Origin: an uncultured Chloroflexia bacterium
GTDB taxonomy: Bacteria > Chloroflexota > Limnocylindria > QHBO01
DNA: 64,000 bases
Assembly: GCA_963825525.1 (NCBI GenBank)
Contig: CAWGTN010000001.1
Location: forward strand, 1 to 64,000
Reading direction: 5' to 3'
The position numbers and the translations under genes are program-made. This document shows, in pieces, positions 1,097 through 63,164 of this stretch. The first letter of the stretch is position 1. Each line of letters starts with the position of its first letter. The notes below the pieces were generated by a model, which was not told the origin of the DNA, did not search any database, and saw only the letters and a list, made by a program, of their open reading frames with translations.

Positions 1097-2470
1097 TCAT
1101 CTGTCGATCGCCTGTGCGGTCATGTCGAGCGCCTCGACCTCCGCGTGGTAGATGGCGCCGATCCGGTCGCCGATCTCCTCCAGGATCGCGGCGATGCGGT
1201 CCGGTGGCAGGGTGAAGGTATCGGCGTAGCGATCTCTGATCGCCCATGCGGTCTCCGCGGCCGCTCCCGCGCGCGACCGTCCCGGCTCGCCGGCCATCAC
1301 CGCTTCGTGCAGTGTCTCGATCGCATCAACCGCCTCGGCAGCACCGTCGAGATCGGGCGGCACGGCCGCGTCGGCCAGCTCCTCCCATTGGTCGGCGACA
1401 CCCCGCCAGGCATGCGCCGCGTCGGCCAGCGCAGCGTTCTCCAGGGCGGCGGCCGCCTCATCGAGTGCCTCGGCATACAGCTCTCGCAAGTGCCCGCCGG
1501 ATGGCCCGACCTGCCCGTCGACGTTTTCATGGATGGCAGACAGCGAGCCGAAGAGGCCGCGGCCGTCGGCGAAGACCTGTGGCCACGCCTTCGCGTTCCG
1601 CTGGTCGGTCATGAGACGGCTCCACTTGCGCCAGGCCGGGAGTGAGAAGGAGTCGGATCGGGATCGCAGGTGATCCACCTGGTCGTCCAGACCAGCCCGC
1701 ATCGCCGCCCGAAGCCGATCGGCCGGGACCGGTCCCGGCGTTGTTCGCAGCCCGACGATCCGGTGCTTGAAGGAGCTGATCCGTCCGCGTGCGGCGGCCA
1801 TCACCGCCGGCGGCACCCGAAATGGATTCCGGCCACGATCATCCACGAGGTACGAGCCATCGGCGTCACGTCCGATGATGACGACGTGCAGGCCGTCGTG
1901 ACCCGCAAGGTCGTCCGGCCGGCACCAGGTCCCGATCGACTGGAGGTCGACCGAGGCGATGACGGGCTCGCCGGCGTCCAGCCGCCCATCGAGCGCCTCA
2001 CGCGCGCCCTTGGCCCCGCCGGTCTCGTGCACATCGGGCTCGATGCCCAGCCGTTCGAGCGTCGTGCCGGTCCAGCCGGGGATCCACGGGTACTGCCACC
2101 GGTTCCGGAACCCGAGCGTGAGGACCGGCCCGCGGTGGATCTTGCCGCGGTGCTCCGCCTGGAACTCCCACAGGATGTAGCCGGCGCCCAGGCCGCCGCC
2201 GATGCCGAGGATCGCTGCTTCGGTCAACGGCTCGCCGGTCAGCCCTGAGATCACGCCCTGATTTGCCAGGACGTTGGCGAGCGTGGCCGTCTCCGGATGC
2301 AGTCCGCCGCGCAGCAGATAGCCCGAAGGGTTGGCAGCATCGGCCGCCGGCTCCGCCGACTGTACGTCTGGGGCGCTCTCGATCAGGGCTCGTCGTGCGG
2401 TGGCGTACCGCTCGCCGGTCTTGGCCATGCGCGCACGCACGACCCGCTTGAAGGCCTTGTCGGTGGTCAT
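1097..2470 (-). CDS. BtrH_N/DUF4872-like (papain-fold peptidase-like) protein with N-terminal basic RMAKTGE peptide
   Basis: 457 aa. LTEAAILGIGGGLG and HVVIIG..D motifs of BtrH-like proteins. N-terminus MTTDKAFKRVVRARMAKTGERYATAR. Confidence 0.7.
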   Translation of the reverse strand: MTTDKAFKRVVRARMAKTGERYATARRALIESAPDVQSAEPAADAANPSGYLLRGGLHPETATLANVLANQGVISGLTGEPLTEAAILGIGGGLGAGYILWEFQAEHRGKIHRGPVLTLGFRNRWQYPWIPGWTGTTLERLGIEPDVHETGGAKGAREALDGRLDAGEPVIASVDLQSIGTWCRPDDLAGHDGLHVVIIGRDADGSYLVDDRGRNPFRVPPAVMAAARGRISSFKHRIVGLRTTPGPVPADRLRAAMRAGLDDQVDHLRSRSDSFSLPAWRKWSRLMTDQRNAKAWPQVFADGRGLFGSLSAIHENVDGQVGPSGGHLRELYAEALDEAAAALENAALADAAHAWRGVADQWEELADAAVPPDLDGAAEAVDAIETLHEAVMAGEPGRSRAGAAAETAWAIRDRYADTFTLPPDRIAAILEEIGDRIGAIYHAEVEALDMTAQAIDR

Positions 2471-2638
2471 CGGTCAGTTCTCCGTCACGGCCGTCGACGC
2501 GCGCGCCCACACCGCCACGTCGCTGGCCGGTCGGATGGTTGACCGGTTCGTCCCGAGGATCCGGATCCCCTTTACCGCCGCATCGCCGAGTCGCGTGGGG
2601 ACTCGGTCTGGTGGTCCGGCGCGGGAGGCGCCGCCGCG
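2471..2638 (-). ncRNA. Candidate structured leader RNA, copy 1
   Basis: Hairpin CCGAGUC-cccacgc-GACUCGG, AAAGGGGAU-ccgg-AUCCUC hairpin, CCGGUC/GACCGG hairpin, and closing stem CCCGCGCCG/CGGUGUGGG. Matches the leader at 12843-13004. Confidence 0.65.
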
Positions 2639-2668
2639 ATTGTACGACGCGGTGAAATCGCGTCGCAA
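2639..2668 (-). promoter_or_regulatory. sigma70-type promoter TTGCGA-18-TACAAT
   Basis: Minus-strand -35 at 2663-2668 and -10 at 2639-2644. Same position relative to the leader as the promoter at 12814-12842. Confidence 0.65.
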
Positions 2669-2772
2669 GCCATCGTCTCGCCGATGCCGTGAGGCGTCAG
2701 CCGTCGCCAGGTGGACGTCCACCGGGCGGTACGCGCCGTCGCGTCTCCGAGCGCTGCCGGGCAGCAGTTGGA

Positions 2773-3814
2773 TCAGGCAGTCGTGGGCGGGGCGGCGACC
2801 CGCGTCACGGCAAAGAGCTCCACGGGCTCTTCGACTCCACGCAGCTCGATCTGCCCGAGGCTCTCAATCGCGACCTCGTCCGGCAGGTCGATGGCTGAGA
2901 CGACGGCGCCCGAAGCGAGAAATGGGCGCTGAAGCCCCTTGCCTGCCTGCTCGATGCGCGCCGCGGTGTTCAGCGTGTCGCCCAGAAAGACGATCTCGTG
3001 CTTGATCGTCCCGATCTCGCCGGTGACCACAGGGCCCAGGTGCAGACCGGCCCAGAAGCTGGGCACGACGCCGAAATCGGCTTCGTAGGCCGAGCGTGCT
3101 GCCTCCAGCGTGTCGGAGATGGCGAACACCGTCCTGACACAGCCCGCGTTTCGCAGCCCGTCCTGTGCCGTCCAGGTGAGGATGACCTCGTCGCCGACGT
3201 AGCGGTGCACCTCACCGCGGTAGCGCACGGCGCTGGCGGAGACGTCGCTGATGAATCGGCTCAGGAAGGCGTGGTAGCGCAGGTTGCCGAGCCGGGTGGC
3301 GATCGGGGTGGACTCGCGCAGGTCGATCAGCAGGAAAGACACGGACCTCCTCGCGAGGACGGTGGTAGCGGCCGACGATCAGGCCGACGAGCACGCCACG
3401 CGCCCAGGAGCCCGTTGACCTGGCCCACGAAGTTGAACACCAGCGCGGCGACGAAGCTCCCGGCAACAGCGATGACGAACTGCTGGTCCACCAGCTCCGC
3501 AGGGACAGGCCAGCGACGGTGAGGAGCGGCAGGCTGACCCCGACCACGATGACGATGATCCACACAAGGCTCCGCGTGACGAGCACCACGAGGAACGGAG
3601 CCTCACGCCATCGGCGCGGAATGAGCCCGATCGCCCAGCTCACGTTGAAGGTGACCATCCCTGCCGTGATCAGCAGGCCGATCACGGCGCCGGCCGCCAT
3701 CGACGCGCCCGCACCGCCGATGAGCCAGCCGAGCCCGAACCCGATCACCGTTCCGGGGGGTACCGTGACCATCAGGACCTGCGCCAGGGTGCGCCACTTC
3801 TCGGCTTCCGTCAC
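2773..3814 (-). CDS. Membrane-anchored class III adenylate/guanylate cyclase (frameshifted)
   Basis: N-terminal TM helices. Cyclase motifs LIDLRESTPIA, YVGDEV, GLHLGPVVTGEIG, GDTLNTAARIE. Frame changes near 3505, 3400 and 3340. Confidence 0.85.
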
Positions 3815-12813: not shown

Positions 12814-12842
12814 TTGCGGGGGAGTTTGCCCGTGCCTATAGT
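12814..12842 (+). promoter_or_regulatory. sigma70-type promoter TTGCGG-17-TATAGT
   Basis: -35 at 12814-12819 and -10 at 12837-12842. Confidence 0.7.
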
Positions 12843-13004
12843 CGCGGTGGCGTCCTGCCCGACGCCCAAGCTCCGCCGGGTGCCTGCGTGACCCGCTCGA
12901 GGAGTCAAAGGGGATTGGTGTCCTCCGGGCGGACCTGACGGCCACGAAACCTGAGGGTCGTTGCGACGGTGCGCAGGACTGGTGCGGCGGCCGGAGGGCT
13001 TTCG
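12843..13004 (+). ncRNA. Candidate structured leader RNA, copy 2
   Basis: CUCC..CGGGU-gccugcgug-ACCCG..GGAG stem, AAAGGGGAU-uggu-GUCCUC hairpin, closing GUCCUGC/GCAGGAC. Matches 2471-2638. Confidence 0.65.
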
Positions 13005-13982
13005 ATGACCGAGCAGAAGCATCTCAAGGCGCTCATCCGATCCCGGATGGCGCGCACCGGTGAGTCATACACCAGCGCACGCAGCCACACCGTCAGGCAC
13101 GAGGCGCGTCCGACCCTGACGCTGGCGGCCGAGTTCCGGGCCCACGACAAGCACTGCATGACGGCAGTCTTCACCGCCGATGGCGGACACATCGTCAGCG
13201 GCGGCTTCGGCGGCCAGGCACGCATCTGGACACCCGACGGGACCCGGGTCGGCGAATTCGTCGGCCACGAGTCGGCCGTCAGCGTGGTGCGCATCTCGCC
13301 GGACGGAGCCACCGCCATCACCGCCTCATCCGACAAGACCGTCCGTACCTGGGATCTTCCGACGAGACGGCAGATTGCCGTGCTCGGAACGCATCGGAAG
13401 CAGGTCCTGGCACTCGATCTTGACGCGGCGCGGGACCGGGTGTGGAGTGGTGGCCACGATGGCCGGCTCAACGCGTGGACCCTCTCGACAGGGGAGCGTG
13501 TGGCCCAGATCGATCTTGGCGGCAGTGTGTCTTCGGTCGCCGTGCGAGCAACGGATGGGACGGTGGCCGTAGCCACGGTTGGCGCCGGGATCGCGATCCT
13601 GGGTCCTGACGGCGAGGAGATGGTTCGCTTGGCCGAGGACGCCTCCGTCGTCGGCTCGGTGACGTGGGCGACCGACGGCGGCTTCATGCTTGCGTCGGGG
13701 CAACGCGTGGCCACGGTCTGGGCATCGGACACCTGGCAGCTCGTGCGGTCGCTGGAGACGGGGCCGGGGAGCATGCTGCCGGCGGCGCTCAGTGATGACG
13801 GGGGCCGGATGGCGCTCGGATGGGACCATCACGTGGGCCTCTGGAGCGCCGATGAGTCGCAGCAGGGCGTGGTGATCAACGACCTTCCCAAGGGCGTCTA
13901 TGGCCTGGCGTTCTCGCCCGACGGTCGCTCCTTAGCTATGGCGGCGGCGGACGGTCGGGTTCGCGTCTGGTCAGTCACCTAG
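13005..13982 (+). CDS. WD40-repeat protein with N-terminal basic RMARTGE peptide
   Basis: RBS GGAGGG; GH...WD repeats (GHESAVSVVRISPDG, DKTVRTWD). N-terminus MTEQKHLKALIRSRMARTGESYTSAR. Confidence 0.9.
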   Translation: MTEQKHLKALIRSRMARTGESYTSARSHTVRHEARPTLTLAAEFRAHDKHCMTAVFTADGGHIVSGGFGGQARIWTPDGTRVGEFVGHESAVSVVRISPDGATAITASSDKTVRTWDLPTRRQIAVLGTHRKQVLALDLDAARDRVWSGGHDGRLNAWTLSTGERVAQIDLGGSVSSVAVRATDGTVAVATVGAGIAILGPDGEEMVRLAEDASVVGSVTWATDGGFMLASGQRVATVWASDTWQLVRSLETGPGSMLPAALSDDGGRMALGWDHHVGLWSADESQQGVVINDLPKGVYGLAFSPDGRSLAMAAADGRVRVWSVT

Positions 13983-19099: not shown

Positions 19100-19175
19100 G
19101 TCCCCGTAGCTCAGAGGACAGAGCAACCGCCTTCTAAGCGGTCGGTCGCAGGTTCGAATCCTGCCGGGGACGCCA
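19100..19175 (+). tRNA. tRNA-Arg(TCT)
   Basis: Acceptor GTCCCCG/CGGGGAC, anticodon arm ACCGC-CT TCT AA-GCGGT, T-loop GGTTCGAATCC, encoded CCA. Confidence 0.96.
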
Positions 19176-62212: not shown

Positions 62213-63164
62213 TCAGCGGGCGCGGGCGGCCTCGCGCTCGAGGATCTGCGCCCGCTTGGCCTCGAACCGCGACGCCTGGGCGTCGAGGTTGGTGAGGAAC
62301 GCGCGAAGCTCGGTGCGGCGCCGCTCGGCCGACGGGTCAATGCCCTCGAGTTCGAAGACGCCCCAATGCGCCAGGAGCGGCCAGACGACGTCGTCGTGAT
62401 GGACCCGCAGGTCGTAGATACCGGCCTTCGCCATCTGGGCGGCCTTGCGGGTGAAGTTCACCATCCCTGATCCGGGCATCTGGAAGTCCATGATCTCGTC
62501 CGCGATCGCATGCACGGCGGCGGACGGGATCGATCTTCATGGCCTCCGACAGCATGTCCCGATAGAAGACCATGTGAAGGTTTTCGTCGGATGCGATGCG
62601 GGTCATGATCCTGTCCGCCACCGGGTCGGACGAGTAGCGCCCCGTGTTGCGGTGGCTGATCCGCGTCGCCAGCTCCTGGAACGCCACGTAGGCCAGGCCG
62701 CGCAGGACGTTGCCACCATCATCGTGGTCATAGGCGGTCTGCAGCTGGTTCATGCGTCCGCGCTCCAGCGCAATCGGATCGATGTTGCGGGTCACCACGA
62801 GGTAGTCGCGCAGCACGATGGCATGGCGCCCTTCCTCGGCGGTCCATCGGTTCACCCAGTTGATCCACGGGCCGTCGCCGCGGCCGAACATTCGGTGGAT
62901 CTCGCGGTGATAGCTCGGCAGGTTGTCCTCGGTCAGGAGGTTGACCTCGAACGCGATCTGCGCCACGCCGCTGATGCGGGGCTGGTCCGGCGTCCAGGGA
63001 TCCTTGTCGAAATCACGGCCCATCGAATACGGGATGTAGTCGTGTGGGAACCACTCCTTGGCCATGCCGAGGTGGCGGTTCAGCAGCATCTCGGCCGCGG
63101 GCTCGAGCTCGGTCAGGAGGTCGCGGGGAGGCGTGAAGGAGGGGGTCTCGATCTGGGTCGTCAT
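62213..63164 (-). CDS. Acyl-ACP desaturase (DesA-like; frameshift near 62520)
   Basis: LLTEDNLPSY, WTAEEGRH, FQELAT, DENLH diiron motifs; FQMPG in the next frame. Confidence 0.9.

What the first reader, a model, noticed from the sequence alone, without database searches (positions are those of the whole stretch)
2471..2638. Covarying alternative pairing (pseudoknot or switch) inside the shared leader RNA
Seen: in both copies the first hairpin loop is complementary to the same 3' segment that closes the outer stem. Copy 1: loop CCCACGC (2599-2593) pairs with GUGUGGG (2512-2506), which also pairs with 5' CCCGCGC. Copy 2: loop CCUGCGU (12883-12889) pairs with GCGCAGG (12971-12977), which overlaps the partner of 5' GUCCUGC (12852-12858). 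All three segments change together between copies. Inference: two mutually exclusive folds about 30 nt upstream of the start codon, a riboswitch-like design whose ligand could be the encoded peptide or a metabolite.
Basis: partly seen in the sequence, partly recalled or inferred. Interest (0 to 1): 0.75.

Follow-up and report, generated by a model that had tools for sequence, protein, structure and literature searches.

The report
Kissing-loop leader RNA with conserved peptide
The flagged pairing is a real contact between two hairpin loops in a widespread, uncatalogued mRNA leader that hides the ribosome-binding site and always precedes genes starting with the same 30-residue basic peptide.

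Summary
In both window copies a 7-nt hairpin loop (L3: 2599-2593; 12883-12889) is complementary to a 7-nt segment further 3' (2512-2506; 12971-12977).

Homologues show this is a conserved, covarying contact. 116 of 119 distinct leaders keep at least 6 contiguous pairs. On a 95-row alignment, 5 of the 7 pairs show compensatory changes.

The 3' partner does not close an outer stem. It is the 7-nt apical loop of a long hairpin whose base pairs with the Shine-Dalgarno sequence, so the contact is an intramolecular kissing loop.

Its GCGC is the 3' strand of a local hairpin, P1. Its CCC forms a second, newly found pseudoknot with the GGG after hairpin P4 (96 of 111). Its match to the 3' segment is not conserved, so mutually exclusive folds are not supported.

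The leader matches no Rfam family. It is coupled across at least six phyla to an N-terminal basic helical hairpin that matches no Pfam family. That peptide is fused to unrelated domains.

I read it as a translational control leader. Autoregulation by the peptide is plausible but untested.

The parts
2639..2668 (-). Copy 1 promoter-like site: TTGCGA (2668-2663), 18-nt spacer, TACAAT (2644-2639). It places the RNA 5' end a few nt before P1.
   Evidence: 1 site found against 0.0 expected in shuffles. A TTGAC...TAnnnT site is visible at the same place upstream of the homologues printed (read by eye, not scored).
2618..2632 (-). Copy 1 P1 hairpin: GGCGC / loop CUCCC / GCGCC. The loop CCC (2625-2623) is the 5' strand of pseudoknot PK2.
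   Evidence: helix 1: 97.3% paired, 4 of 5 pairs change on both sides. for PK2.
2575..2614 (-). Copy 1 P2 (CCACC 2614-2610 with GGCGG 2579-2575, one A.C mismatch) enclosing P3 (2606-2600 with 2592-2586).
   Evidence: helices 2 and 3: 98.7% and 97.9% paired, and all 11 pairs change on both sides. Coordinates.
2593..2599 (-). Copy 1 L3, the 7-nt loop CCCACGC of P3: 5' strand of the kissing interaction (PK1).
2555..2570 (-). Copy 1 P4 hairpin GGGGAU / CCGG / AUCCUC, preceded by the conserved UAAA (2574-2571). The stem is nearly invariant in sequence and has a conserved G.U pair.
   Evidence: helix 5: 95.4% paired. First four pairs: GC 94; GU 76 / GC 17; GC 89; GC 72 / GU 12. The distal pairs covary.
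2552..2554 (-). Copy 1 GGG directly after P4: 3' strand of PK2, pairing with CCC 2625-2623.
   Evidence: 96 of 111 distinct 5' domains fully paired. Shuffled tails averaged 56.8, maximum 67 in 2000 shuffles.
2471..2545 (-). Copy 1 long 3' hairpin (P5-P7). Its base pairs UCCG (2535-2532) with CGGA (2484-2481), overlapping the Shine-Dalgarno GGAG (2483-2480). It also pairs CGGUCA (2545-2540) with UGACCG (2476-2471), next to the AUG.
   Evidence: folds. helices 6-11: all 28 pairs change on both sides. The anti-SD:SD helix is 85.8% paired.
2506..2512 (-). Copy 1 L7, the 7-nt apical loop GUGUGGG of the 3' hairpin: 3' strand of the kissing interaction.
   Evidence: the apical loop in the unconstrained fold is exactly this heptamer..
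1097..2470 (-). Copy 1 gene (457 aa). Codons 1-33 (2470-2372) encode the conserved basic N-terminal peptide. The rest is BtrH_N + DUF4872.
12849..12866 (+). Copy 2 P1 hairpin GGCGUC / CUGCCC / GACGCC. CCC 12858-12860 is the PK2 strand. A TATAGT -10-like hexamer lies at 12837-12842.
   Evidence: One search found no promoter at its threshold; the -10-like hexamer was read by alignment with copy 1 only.
12870..12905 (+). Copy 2 P2 (GCUCC 12870-12874 with GGAGU 12901-12905) enclosing P3 (12877-12881 with 12891-12895). The L3 core CCUGCGU is at 12883-12889.
12910..12929 (+). Copy 2 P4 (GGGGA 12910-12914 with UCCUC 12921-12925), one spacer C, then GGG 12927-12929 (PK2 partner of CCC 12858-12860).
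   Evidence: The 1-nt offset and the coordinates were read by eye.
12946..13004 (+). Copy 2 long 3' hairpin. CGAAACCU (12946-12953) pairs with GGG.CUUUCG (12996-13004), covering part of the Shine-Dalgarno GGAGGG (12993-12998). The tip carries L7, GCGCAGG, at 12971-12977.
13005..13982 (+). Copy 2 gene (325 aa). Codons 1-33 (13005-13103) encode the conserved N-terminal peptide. The rest is a WD40 beta-propeller.

Best explanation
Window 2638-2471 (minus strand), and its paralogue at about 12849-13004 (plus strand), are copies of an uncatalogued 5' leader RNA of about 155-175 nt.

Shown by comparative analysis:
- A 5' domain of three hairpin units: P1, P2-P3 and P4.
- A short pseudoknot (PK2) that locks this domain: the last three nt of the P1 loop (CCC) pair with the three nt after P4 (GGG).
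- A long 3' hairpin whose lower helix pairs an anti-SD strand with the Shine-Dalgarno sequence.
- A kissing loop (PK1): the 7-nt apical loop of the 3' hairpin (L7) is the full complement of the 7-nt loop of P3 (L3).

It is a tertiary contact that docks the tip of the SD-sequestering hairpin onto the 5' domain. It is not one of two exclusive folds.

Inferred: the leader controls translation initiation in cis. The docked, closed form keeps the ribosome-binding site paired, and an effector that changes docking or hairpin stability sets the rate of initiation.

Inferred with less confidence (about 0.3): the effector is the product itself. Every gene behind this leader begins with the same basic peptide of about 30 residues, predicted to be a helical hairpin. 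It would bind the leader, for example the kissing complex, much as Rop binds the ColE1 kissing complex (Rop-ColE1 is recalled, from no call). That would make promoter, leader and peptide a portable autoregulatory cassette.
For: Structure of PK1:
- 98.5% of cells paired, and 5 of 7 pairs change on both sides: U-A 39 / C-G 25 / U-G 12; C-G 74 / U-A 4; A-U 65 / G-C 8 / C-G 2 / G-U 2; C-G 75 / A-U 3; G-C 73 / G-U 5 / A-U 1 (95 distinct rows, 16-17 of them gapped at PK1).
- Loop/partner types include CUCACGC/GCGUGAG, CCCACGC/GCGUGGG, CCUGCGC/GCGCAGG, CUCGCGC/GCGCGAG, CCCGCGC/GCGCGGG, CCCCAGC/GCUGGGG, CCCCGAC/GUCGGGG, CCCCGGC/GCCGGGG and ACCGCACC/GGUGCGGU.

L7 is a hairpin tip: in 108 of 116 leaders the complement is centred within 2 nt of the tip of the deepest hairpin, in an unconstrained fold of the 3' domain that made no use of the complementarity.

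PK2: 96 of 111 fully paired. 41 of 44 leaders with a non-GGG tail pair with their own loop (CUC/GAG 16, GCC/GGC 4, CCG/CGG 4, and others), and none of those tails would pair with CCC.

SD sequestration: the anti-SD:SD helix is 85.8% paired and 7 of 7 of its pairs covary. Positions -15 to -5 are on average 68% paired. No terminator-like site is present.

The whole structure beats both controls: 0 of 500 shuffles reach the observed values, and slid partners pair at 40-46% against 91.3%.

Coupling to the peptide:
- Of 49 leaders found by RNA model alone, 48 are followed by the peptide ORF. The 49th has ATA at the start position.
- Of 80 loci found by peptide alone, 77 have the 5' domain 80-160 nt upstream on the same strand. 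The other 3 have weak or cut matches.

The peptide itself:
- 10 invariant residues, 5 of them Lys or Arg.
- Predicted helix 3-18, turn, helix 22-29 at pLDDT 85-97, followed by a disordered linker.
- 3775 cluster representatives at E <= 0.001, nearly always at residues 1-31.
- Fused to DUF4287, BtrH_N/DUF4872, WD40, AHSA1, DUF305, OmdA, PG_binding_1 and DUF4142.
Against: - No experiment or expression data. The transcript ends, the fold in vivo and any regulation are all inferred.
- The AUG itself is unpaired in 74 of 119 folds, and only 62 of 119 have at least 70% of the SD window paired. Occlusion may be partial.
- A 7-bp kissing contact present in every state would be architectural and need not be regulated.
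- For the peptide-as-effector step there is no direct evidence. The peptide matches no RNA-binding family. Co-inheritance could instead reflect one shared trans-acting factor plus a peptide with another role, such as targeting or a degron.
- Residue 6 of the peptide tracks the loop class, but it also tracks lineage.
- Sequences are related, so the shuffle controls overstate significance. Alignments A6 and A10 were fitted to my model's nested helices, though not to PK1, PK2 or the alternative pairing.
Confidence: 0.6

Rival explanations
1. One reading: a two-state switch. The 3' heptamer pairs either with L3 or with the 5' segment (P1 loop plus P1 3' strand), giving mutually exclusive folds that set SD access.
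For: - In both window copies the 5' segment is complementary to the 3' segment over 9 and 7 contiguous pairs. The duplexes are calculated to be stable (-17.9 and -14.6 kcal/mol).
- 7 or more contiguous pairs occur in 17 of 46 leaders and 38 of 73.
- In the BtrH-type group the match reaches 8-11 pairs (L134 10, L159 11).
Against: - In the commonest class (partner GCGUGAG) only 3-5 contiguous pairs remain in 16 of 19 leaders.
- One of the seven pairs is unpaired in 37 of 79 rows, and another in 14 of 79.
- Where the partner diverges (GCUGGGG, GCCGGGG, GCGCAGG) only 4 off-register pairs remain.
- The 5' segment's two halves have their own covarying partners: the P1 stem and PK2.
- The alternative would cost P1, PK2 and part of the apical stem.
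Confidence: 0.1
2. A metabolite- or ion-sensing riboswitch. The double-pseudoknotted 5' domain is an aptamer. Ligand binding changes the docking of L7 and so the stability of the SD-sequestering hairpin.
For: - A compact, pseudoknotted 5' domain with nearly invariant joining nucleotides (AC before P2, CAAA before P4, the GGGG...CCUC stem with a conserved G.U).
- An adjacent SD-sequestering helix.
- Wide distribution across phyla.
- The two-subdomain layout with a variable linker recalls ZTP-type riboswitches (recalled, from no call).
Against: - The downstream genes share no function. They share only the N-terminal peptide, fused to at least 8 unrelated Pfam domains. A metabolite sensor gives no reason for that peptide to be conserved with the RNA in 77 of 80 plus 48 of 49 cases.
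- No ligand can be proposed from the gene context.
Confidence: 0.2
3. A regulon leader recognised by a separate trans-acting factor (an RNA-binding protein, an sRNA or the ribosome). The N-terminal peptide would have an unrelated role, such as a targeting signal, a degron or nucleic-acid tethering. The two travel together because they mark one co-regulated protein set.
For: The coupling evidence is the same as for the best explanation. The peptide has no recognisable RNA-binding family. P4 is sequence-invariant and resembles an SD / anti-SD pair, which suggests a sequence-specific partner (the resemblance is by eye).
Against: No candidate factor was found or searched for. Keeping two independent features glued together through many domain swaps and at least six phyla is more simply explained if they interact.
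Confidence: 0.2
4. A constitutive structural 5' element, for example an mRNA-stabilising or folding module, with no regulated switch.
For: All helices and both pseudoknots are mutually compatible, so one static fold explains all the covariation.
Against: A stabiliser does not need to pair with the SD (helix 7), nor to keep near-invariant single-stranded nucleotides and a strict link to a peptide.
Confidence: 0.1

Closest known systems
ColE1 RNA I / RNA II kissing complex and its binding protein Rop (recalled from the literature, not from a call)
   Same: Two hairpins whose 7-nt loops are fully complementary. A small helical-hairpin protein is associated with the system.
   Different: Here both loops lie in one mRNA leader (intramolecular). 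The setting is translation, not plasmid replication. The peptide is about 30 residues and fused to other domains. Its binding to the RNA is unproven, and its self-association gave no verdict.
Autogenous translational operators in mRNA leaders (ribosomal protein S15 pseudoknot, ThrRS operator, phage T4 gp32; recalled)
   Same: A structured, pseudoknotted leader overlapping the ribosome-binding site of the gene whose product would bind it.
   Different: The putative binding module is a short N-terminal tag shared by unrelated proteins, not the whole protein. No mimicry of a known cellular RNA target is evident. Binding has not been tested.
Two-subdomain riboswitches held together by long-range pseudoknots or loop-loop contacts (ZTP/pfl; purine L2-L3; guanidine-II kissing hairpins; recalled)
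   Same: A tertiary loop contact joins separate structural units next to an SD-controlling helix, with a variable linker between the units.
   Different: No Rfam model of these or any other class matches. The loops are 7 nt, fully Watson-Crick complementary and free to covary, rather than conserved ligand-contacting nucleotides. The gene association is with a peptide, not a pathway.
Unnamed motif cluster upstream of proteins with a 'YndB-like N-terminal domain' in bioRxiv 10.64898/2026.10.21.760802 (passages seen; figures and supplements not seen)
   Same: A conserved non-coding motif directly upstream of proteins with no Pfam annotation. YndB is recalled to be of the AHSA1/SRPBCC kind, the fold found in the commonest gene type here.
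   Different: In my proteins the AHSA1-like domain is C-terminal and the N-terminus is the basic peptide. The preprint passages give no sequence, structure or taxa, so identity cannot be judged.

Membership tests
Any Rfam 15 family (4227 covariance models) | Score at or above the family's gathering threshold | tested here: not met
   whole window, only a tRNA and ASdes, both elsewhere; window 2300-2800 at E <= 10, best match mir-2766 at 21.7 bits against a gathering score of 60; 20 homologous loci from several phyla, 0 matches.
Riboswitch (metabolite-binding cis-regulatory RNA) | Conserved structured domain in a 5' UTR, supported by covariation | tested here: met
Riboswitch (metabolite-binding cis-regulatory RNA) | Expression platform: a helix that hides the SD, or a terminator | tested here: met
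   Anti-SD:SD helix 85.8% paired, 7 of 7 pairs covary. No terminator-like site.
Riboswitch (metabolite-binding cis-regulatory RNA) | Association with genes of one pathway or transport function | tested here: not met
   Downstream proteins carry DUF4287, BtrH_N/DUF4872, WD40, AHSA1, DUF305, OmdA, PG_binding_1 or DUF4142. Only the N-terminal peptide is shared.
Riboswitch (metabolite-binding cis-regulatory RNA) | Direct, selective binding of a small ligand | not testable with these tools
   Needs in-line probing, ITC or similar.
   L3:L7 is supported. The 5' segment:L7 pairing is unpaired at one position in 37 of 79 rows and shows no consistent compensation.
ColE1-type kissing complex | Two hairpin loops of about 7 nt that are fully complementary | tested here: met
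ColE1-type kissing complex | Formed between two separate antisense RNAs | tested here: not met
   Both loops lie 80-110 nt apart on one strand of one leader.
Autogenous translational operator | The encoded protein binds its own leader | not testable with these tools
   Only indirect evidence: strict co-occurrence and a basic helical hairpin.
Guanidine-II (mini-ykkC) riboswitch | Two small hairpins with conserved ACGR tetraloops (feature recalled) | tested here: not met
   The loops are 7 nt and vary (for example CCUGCGC, CCCCAGC). No Rfam match.
   No ribozyme family of Rfam matched. Cleavage itself cannot be tested here.
Ribbon-helix-helix DNA-binding domain (considered for the peptide) | N-terminal beta-strand followed by two helices, forming a dimer | tested here: inconclusive
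   AlphaFold2 predicts a helix from residue 3 and no strand. No Pfam, NCBIfam or PDB sequence match.

The most novel reading that the evidence does not exclude
Promoter, double-pseudoknotted leader and the first 30 or so codons form one portable autoregulatory cassette. The N-terminal basic helical hairpin of the nascent or finished protein binds the leader's kissing-loop complex and clamps the SD-sequestering hairpin shut. Any protein that acquires the cassette would then limit its own synthesis. Such a self-contained RNA-peptide feedback module, grafted onto at least 8 unrelated protein families in at least 6 bacterial phyla, would be a kind of gene-control unit not described so far.
Probability: 0.3. 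Interest if true: 0.9.

Novelty: new variant of a known kind. Interest (0 to 1): 0.75.

Why it matters
Three reasons.

1. This is a large RNA family that Rfam 15 does not hold. 545 tblastn-confirmed loci came from one capped scan of species-representative genomes. There are 3775 protein cluster representatives. Two pseudoknots are supported by covariation, so it is a ready target for structure and function work.

2. Its strict link to a short N-terminal peptide, rather than to a pathway, is unusual for a structured leader. It points to either an RNA-peptide feedback cassette or a hidden regulon across soil and freshwater phyla: Chloroflexota, Actinomycetota, Gemmatimonadota, Acidobacteriota, Planctomycetota and Dormiibacterota. 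It would also give a first handle on thousands of proteins of unknown function.

3. An intramolecular 7-bp kissing loop that ties an expression-platform hairpin to a sensor domain is a design principle of interest for RNA engineering.

Tried and rejected
- **Single-sequence folding:** energies no better than shuffles, so uninformative at 69% G+C.
- **blastn of copy 1 against its own genome:** found only itself and missed copy 2, so covariance models were needed.
- **tblastn with the short peptides at loose settings:** only the two true copies stood out. The rest was noise.
- **RNAalifold on a MAFFT alignment:** recovered only the 5' helices, because the 3' domain was misaligned. Replaced by models R1 and R2.
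- **Cross-class swap test of loops against whole 3' domains:** confounded by G.U pairs and by chance matches in G+C-rich sequence (180 of 666 swaps gave 7 or more). I rely on the position-specific counts instead.
- **Model-fitted alignment of PK2:** 85.1% paired, because loop insertions were not right-anchored.
- **Peptide identity:**
  - Pfam, NCBIfam and PDB sequences (best E 1.1) gave nothing.
  - ESM Atlas (best score 0.83, below the level of a lead worth quoting) gave nothing.
  - The ribbon-helix-helix idea was not borne out by the fold.
- **Self-association of the peptide (complex prediction):** no verdict (scores 0.24 and 0.20; the mark is 0.42). This is no evidence either way.
- **Expression:** The look-up of sequencing runs gave only small shares (0.11 or less), kept as contigs. 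No habitat or expression claim is made.
- **Ribozyme reading:** no Rfam ribozyme match. Not pursued.
- **An alternative pairing of the SD-like P4 strand with the anti-SD strand:** looked at by eye only. The anti-SD strand varies while P4 does not, so I dropped it without a count.
- **Literature:**
  - Full-text searches for DUF4287 and for DUF4872/BtrH found no description of this leader or peptide.
  - Full-text searches for kissing loop + structured noncoding RNA + Actinobacteria + candidate riboswitch, and for RNA motif + Micromonospora + pseudoknot + Shine-Dalgarno + unknown function, also found none.
  - For those papers I saw only the search listings.
  - For bioRxiv 10.64898/2026.10.21.760802 I saw passages only. 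Its figures and supplements, which could show whether its motif cluster is this RNA, were not available.

**Unpublished genomes.** G059 (locus L076), G006 (L086) and G148 (L091) are flagged unpublished. They are counted in:
- the genome tallies;
- the 48 matches;
- the 46 rows;
- the '48 of 49'.

They were left out of A5, A6, A10 and R2, and out of all counts.
Full report
**What is at the coordinates.** Window 2638-2471 (minus strand) lies between a promoter-like site and the ATG at 2470. The promoter-like site is TTGCGA, 18 nt, TACAAT at 2668-2639. The ATG opens a 457-residue ORF. A second stretch at about 12849-13004 (plus strand) precedes a 325-residue ORF. The two stretches align at 74% column identity. 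Both ORFs start with a similar basic peptide. They continue as unrelated proteins: BtrH_N + DUF4872 in one and WD40 in the other. No Rfam family matches the leader, either at gathering thresholds over the whole window or at E <= 10 over 2300-2800. Folding either copy alone gives energies no better than shuffles, so the question could only be settled with homologues.

**Finding homologues.**
- The own genome (2.58 Mb, 4 contigs) holds only these two copies. blastn does not even connect them.
- A pattern for the most conserved hairpin found 42 places in 32 of 101 related genomes. The reversed control found 4. By eye, 16 of the 30 loci printed were true leaders, each followed by the same peptide.
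- Model R1 covers the 5' domain. It found the leader in:
  - 26 of 63 genomes of the genus;
  - 18 of 151 genomes sampled from the class, in two families: 10 of 50 and 7 of 44, not counting the window's own genome;
  - 4 of 151 genomes sampled from the phylum, being the own genome and three of one distant genus.
- Three matching genomes are flagged unpublished. I left them out of all later alignments and counts.

- In 48 of 49 leaders the 7-nt loop of hairpin P3 (L3) has a contiguous complement of 7 or more nt at a constant distance downstream. The count is 45 of 46 without the unpublished genomes.
- When the 3' domain is folded with that heptamer kept single-stranded, the heptamer sits at the tip of one long hairpin. 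The base of that hairpin pairs an anti-SD strand with the Shine-Dalgarno sequence.
- I then defined the tip without using complementarity, from an unconstrained fold of the 3' domain. In 108 of 116 leaders the tip of the deepest hairpin lies within 2 nt of the centre of the complement.
- Both partners are therefore hairpin loops of about 7 nt, and the pairing is compatible with every helix.
- On a full-length alignment made with model R2 (A10, 95 distinct rows, published genomes only) the seven pairs are 98.5% paired. Five of them change on both sides.
- The whole structure is 91.3% paired, against 70.0% in shuffles and 40-46% with slid partners.

**A second, independent data set.**
- I aligned the first 33 residues of 41 downstream proteins (A7). 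The invariant residues are K5, K8, R12, R14, T18, G19, E20, Y22, A25 and R26.
- I searched with the peptide alone. The representative library holds 3775 clusters at E <= 0.001 and 629 at E <= 1e-10. The match is almost always at residues 1-31.
- By their record titles these 80 come from Chloroflexota, Actinomycetota (Micromonospora, Lentzea, Isoptericola, Planobispora, Solirubrobacteraceae, Acidimicrobiales), Gemmatimonadota, Acidobacteriota, Planctomycetota and Dormiibacterota.
- The closest titles (88-91% identity) are Chloroflexota MAGs. The window's genome is therefore probably of that phylum (inference).
- R1 found the 5' domain on the coding strand, 80-160 nt upstream of the peptide, in 77 of these 80 loci. 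The other three have a diverged match (E 0.01 and 0.012) or are cut by the end of the locus.
- These leaders add many new loop/partner types, each complementary: CUCGCGC/GCGCGAG, CCCGCGC/GCGCGGG, CCCACAC/GUGUGGG, CCCCAGC/GCUGGGG, CCCCGAC/GUCGGGG, CCCCGGC/GCCGGGG, ACCGCACC/GGUGCGGU and UCUCACGCA/UGCGUGAGA.
- The four apparent exceptions turn out to have a one-nucleotide bulge, a single mismatch or a mis-parsed loop.
- Twenty of these loci gave no Rfam match at gathering thresholds.

**The third strand.** Across the family this does not hold.
- Seven or more contiguous pairs occur in 17 of 46 leaders and 38 of 73.
- In the commonest class only 3-5 pairs remain in 16 of 19 leaders.
- On A10 one of the seven pairs is unpaired in 37 of 79 rows, and another in 14 of 79 (the same picture appears on A6).
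- Where the heptamer has diverged, the 5' segment does not follow it.

The segment has better partners.
- Its GCGC is the 3' strand of hairpin P1. The fifth pair of P1 varies C-G 55, U-A 16, A-U 5, G-C 3.
- Its CCC pairs with the GGG that follows hairpin P4. I noticed this second pseudoknot (PK2) in the alignment and counted it with the loop right-anchored.
- 96 of 111 distinct 5' domains are fully paired, and 105 of 111 with a one-nucleotide offset. Shuffled tails gave a mean of 56.8 and a maximum of 67 in 2000 shuffles.
- 41 of the 44 leaders whose tail is not GGG pair with their own loop: CUC/GAG 16, GCC/GGC 4, CCG/CGG 4, CCG/UGG 3, GUC/GAC 2, UCC/GGA 2, CUU/AAG 1, UCG/CGA 1 and others.

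It is not maintained, so I do not read it as a switch. A lineage-specific alternative in the BtrH-type group, where the match is 8-11 pairs, cannot be excluded.

**What the leader looks like as a whole.**
- 5' end a few nt after the -10 hexamer.
- P1.
- P2 enclosing P3 with loop L3.
- A conserved CAAA.
- P4, a nearly invariant GGGG...CCUC stem with a conserved G.U pair.
- GGG (PK2).
- A linker of about 5-10 nt.
- A long hairpin (helices 6-11, all 28 pairs covarying) that carries the SD in its 3' strand and L7 at its tip.
- The AUG.

No terminator-like site is present. G.U pairs in P4 and in the kissing helix fix the strand as the mRNA strand.

**What it probably does.**
- The SD-pairing helix covaries: 85.8% paired, 7 of 7 pairs. 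A role in translation initiation is therefore the natural reading.
- Occlusion is partial in simple folds. The SD window is 68% paired on average, and the AUG is free in 74 of 119 folds.
- The striking fact is the coupling to the peptide. It holds in both directions: 48 of 49 from the RNA side, and 77 of 80, or 80 of 80 with the weak matches, from the peptide side.
- The peptide is fused to DUF4287 (12 of 54), BtrH_N (10), DUF4872 (5), WD40 (3), AHSA1 (3), DUF305, OmdA, PG_binding_1 and DUF4142.
- AlphaFold2 predicts helix 3-18, a turn at the invariant T-G-E, and helix 22-29, at pLDDT 85-97. A disordered linker follows, and then the variable domains.
- A basic helical hairpin that always travels with a kissing-loop RNA suggests that the product binds its own leader. 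Helical-hairpin proteins that recognise kissing complexes (Rop) and autogenous operators (S15, ThrRS) are the precedents I recall.
- This step is inference. The peptide matches no known family. The dimer prediction gave no verdict. No expression data could be obtained.

**Novelty.** The leader is not in Rfam 15 and the peptide is not in Pfam or NCBIfam. Four full-text searches found no description. One 2026 preprint mentions an unnamed motif upstream of unannotated proteins with a YndB-like domain (passages only). I cannot tell whether it is the same RNA. The kind of element, a structured SD-sequestering leader with pseudoknots, is known. Two things are new: the 7-bp intramolecular kissing contact to the tip of the expression hairpin, and the obligatory partnership with an N-terminal peptide shared by unrelated proteins.

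Noticed in passing
window 2552-2554 with 2623-2625; 12927-12929 with 12858-12860: A second pseudoknot (the last 3 nt of the P1 loop pair with the 3 nt after P4).
   Followed up: yes
window 2372-2470 (-) and 13005-13103 (+): A conserved N-terminal peptide of about 30 residues (invariant K5 K8 R12 R14 T18 G19 E20 Y22 A25 R26) with no Pfam, NCBIfam or PDB match. There are 3775 cluster representatives in public data, fused to many unrelated domains. It is predicted to be a helical hairpin.
   Followed up: yes
window 2555-2570 and 12910-12925: Hairpin P4 is almost invariant in sequence (AAAGGGG...CCUC, with a conserved G.U pair). By eye it looks like a Shine-Dalgarno / anti-Shine-Dalgarno pair. Sequence conservation inside a helix suggests a sequence-specific partner.
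   Followed up: partly
L-loci (e.g. L151, L082, L108; L174, L184, L185): Peptide residue 6 tracks the kissing-loop class: His with CCUGCGC-type loops, Asp with CCCCAGC/CCCCGAC-type loops. It also tracks lineage, so this is only a lead for a peptide-loop contact.
   Followed up: partly
L162:181-307 and L162:1046-1204; L075 (two matches separated by a run of N): Some genomes carry two leader copies on the same strand within about 1 kb. In L162 the upstream copy looks truncated in P4.
   Followed up: no
L088 (same place as L042), L071, L074, L067, L081: One copy has ATA at the start-codon position and a frame break in the peptide. Several DUF4287-type ORFs are cut short (104-134 aa instead of about 220). 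These are pseudogenes or MAG assembly errors.
   Followed up: no
window 62767-62834 (+): Rfam match to ASdes TB sRNA (56.5 bits against a gathering score of 40, E 1.2e-10). The window's genome is probably not an actinobacterium. The match may reflect a conserved desaturase coding region.
   Followed up: no
window 19100-19172 (+): A tRNA gene (71.6 bits). From the printed alignment the anticodon reads UCU (Arg).
   Followed up: no
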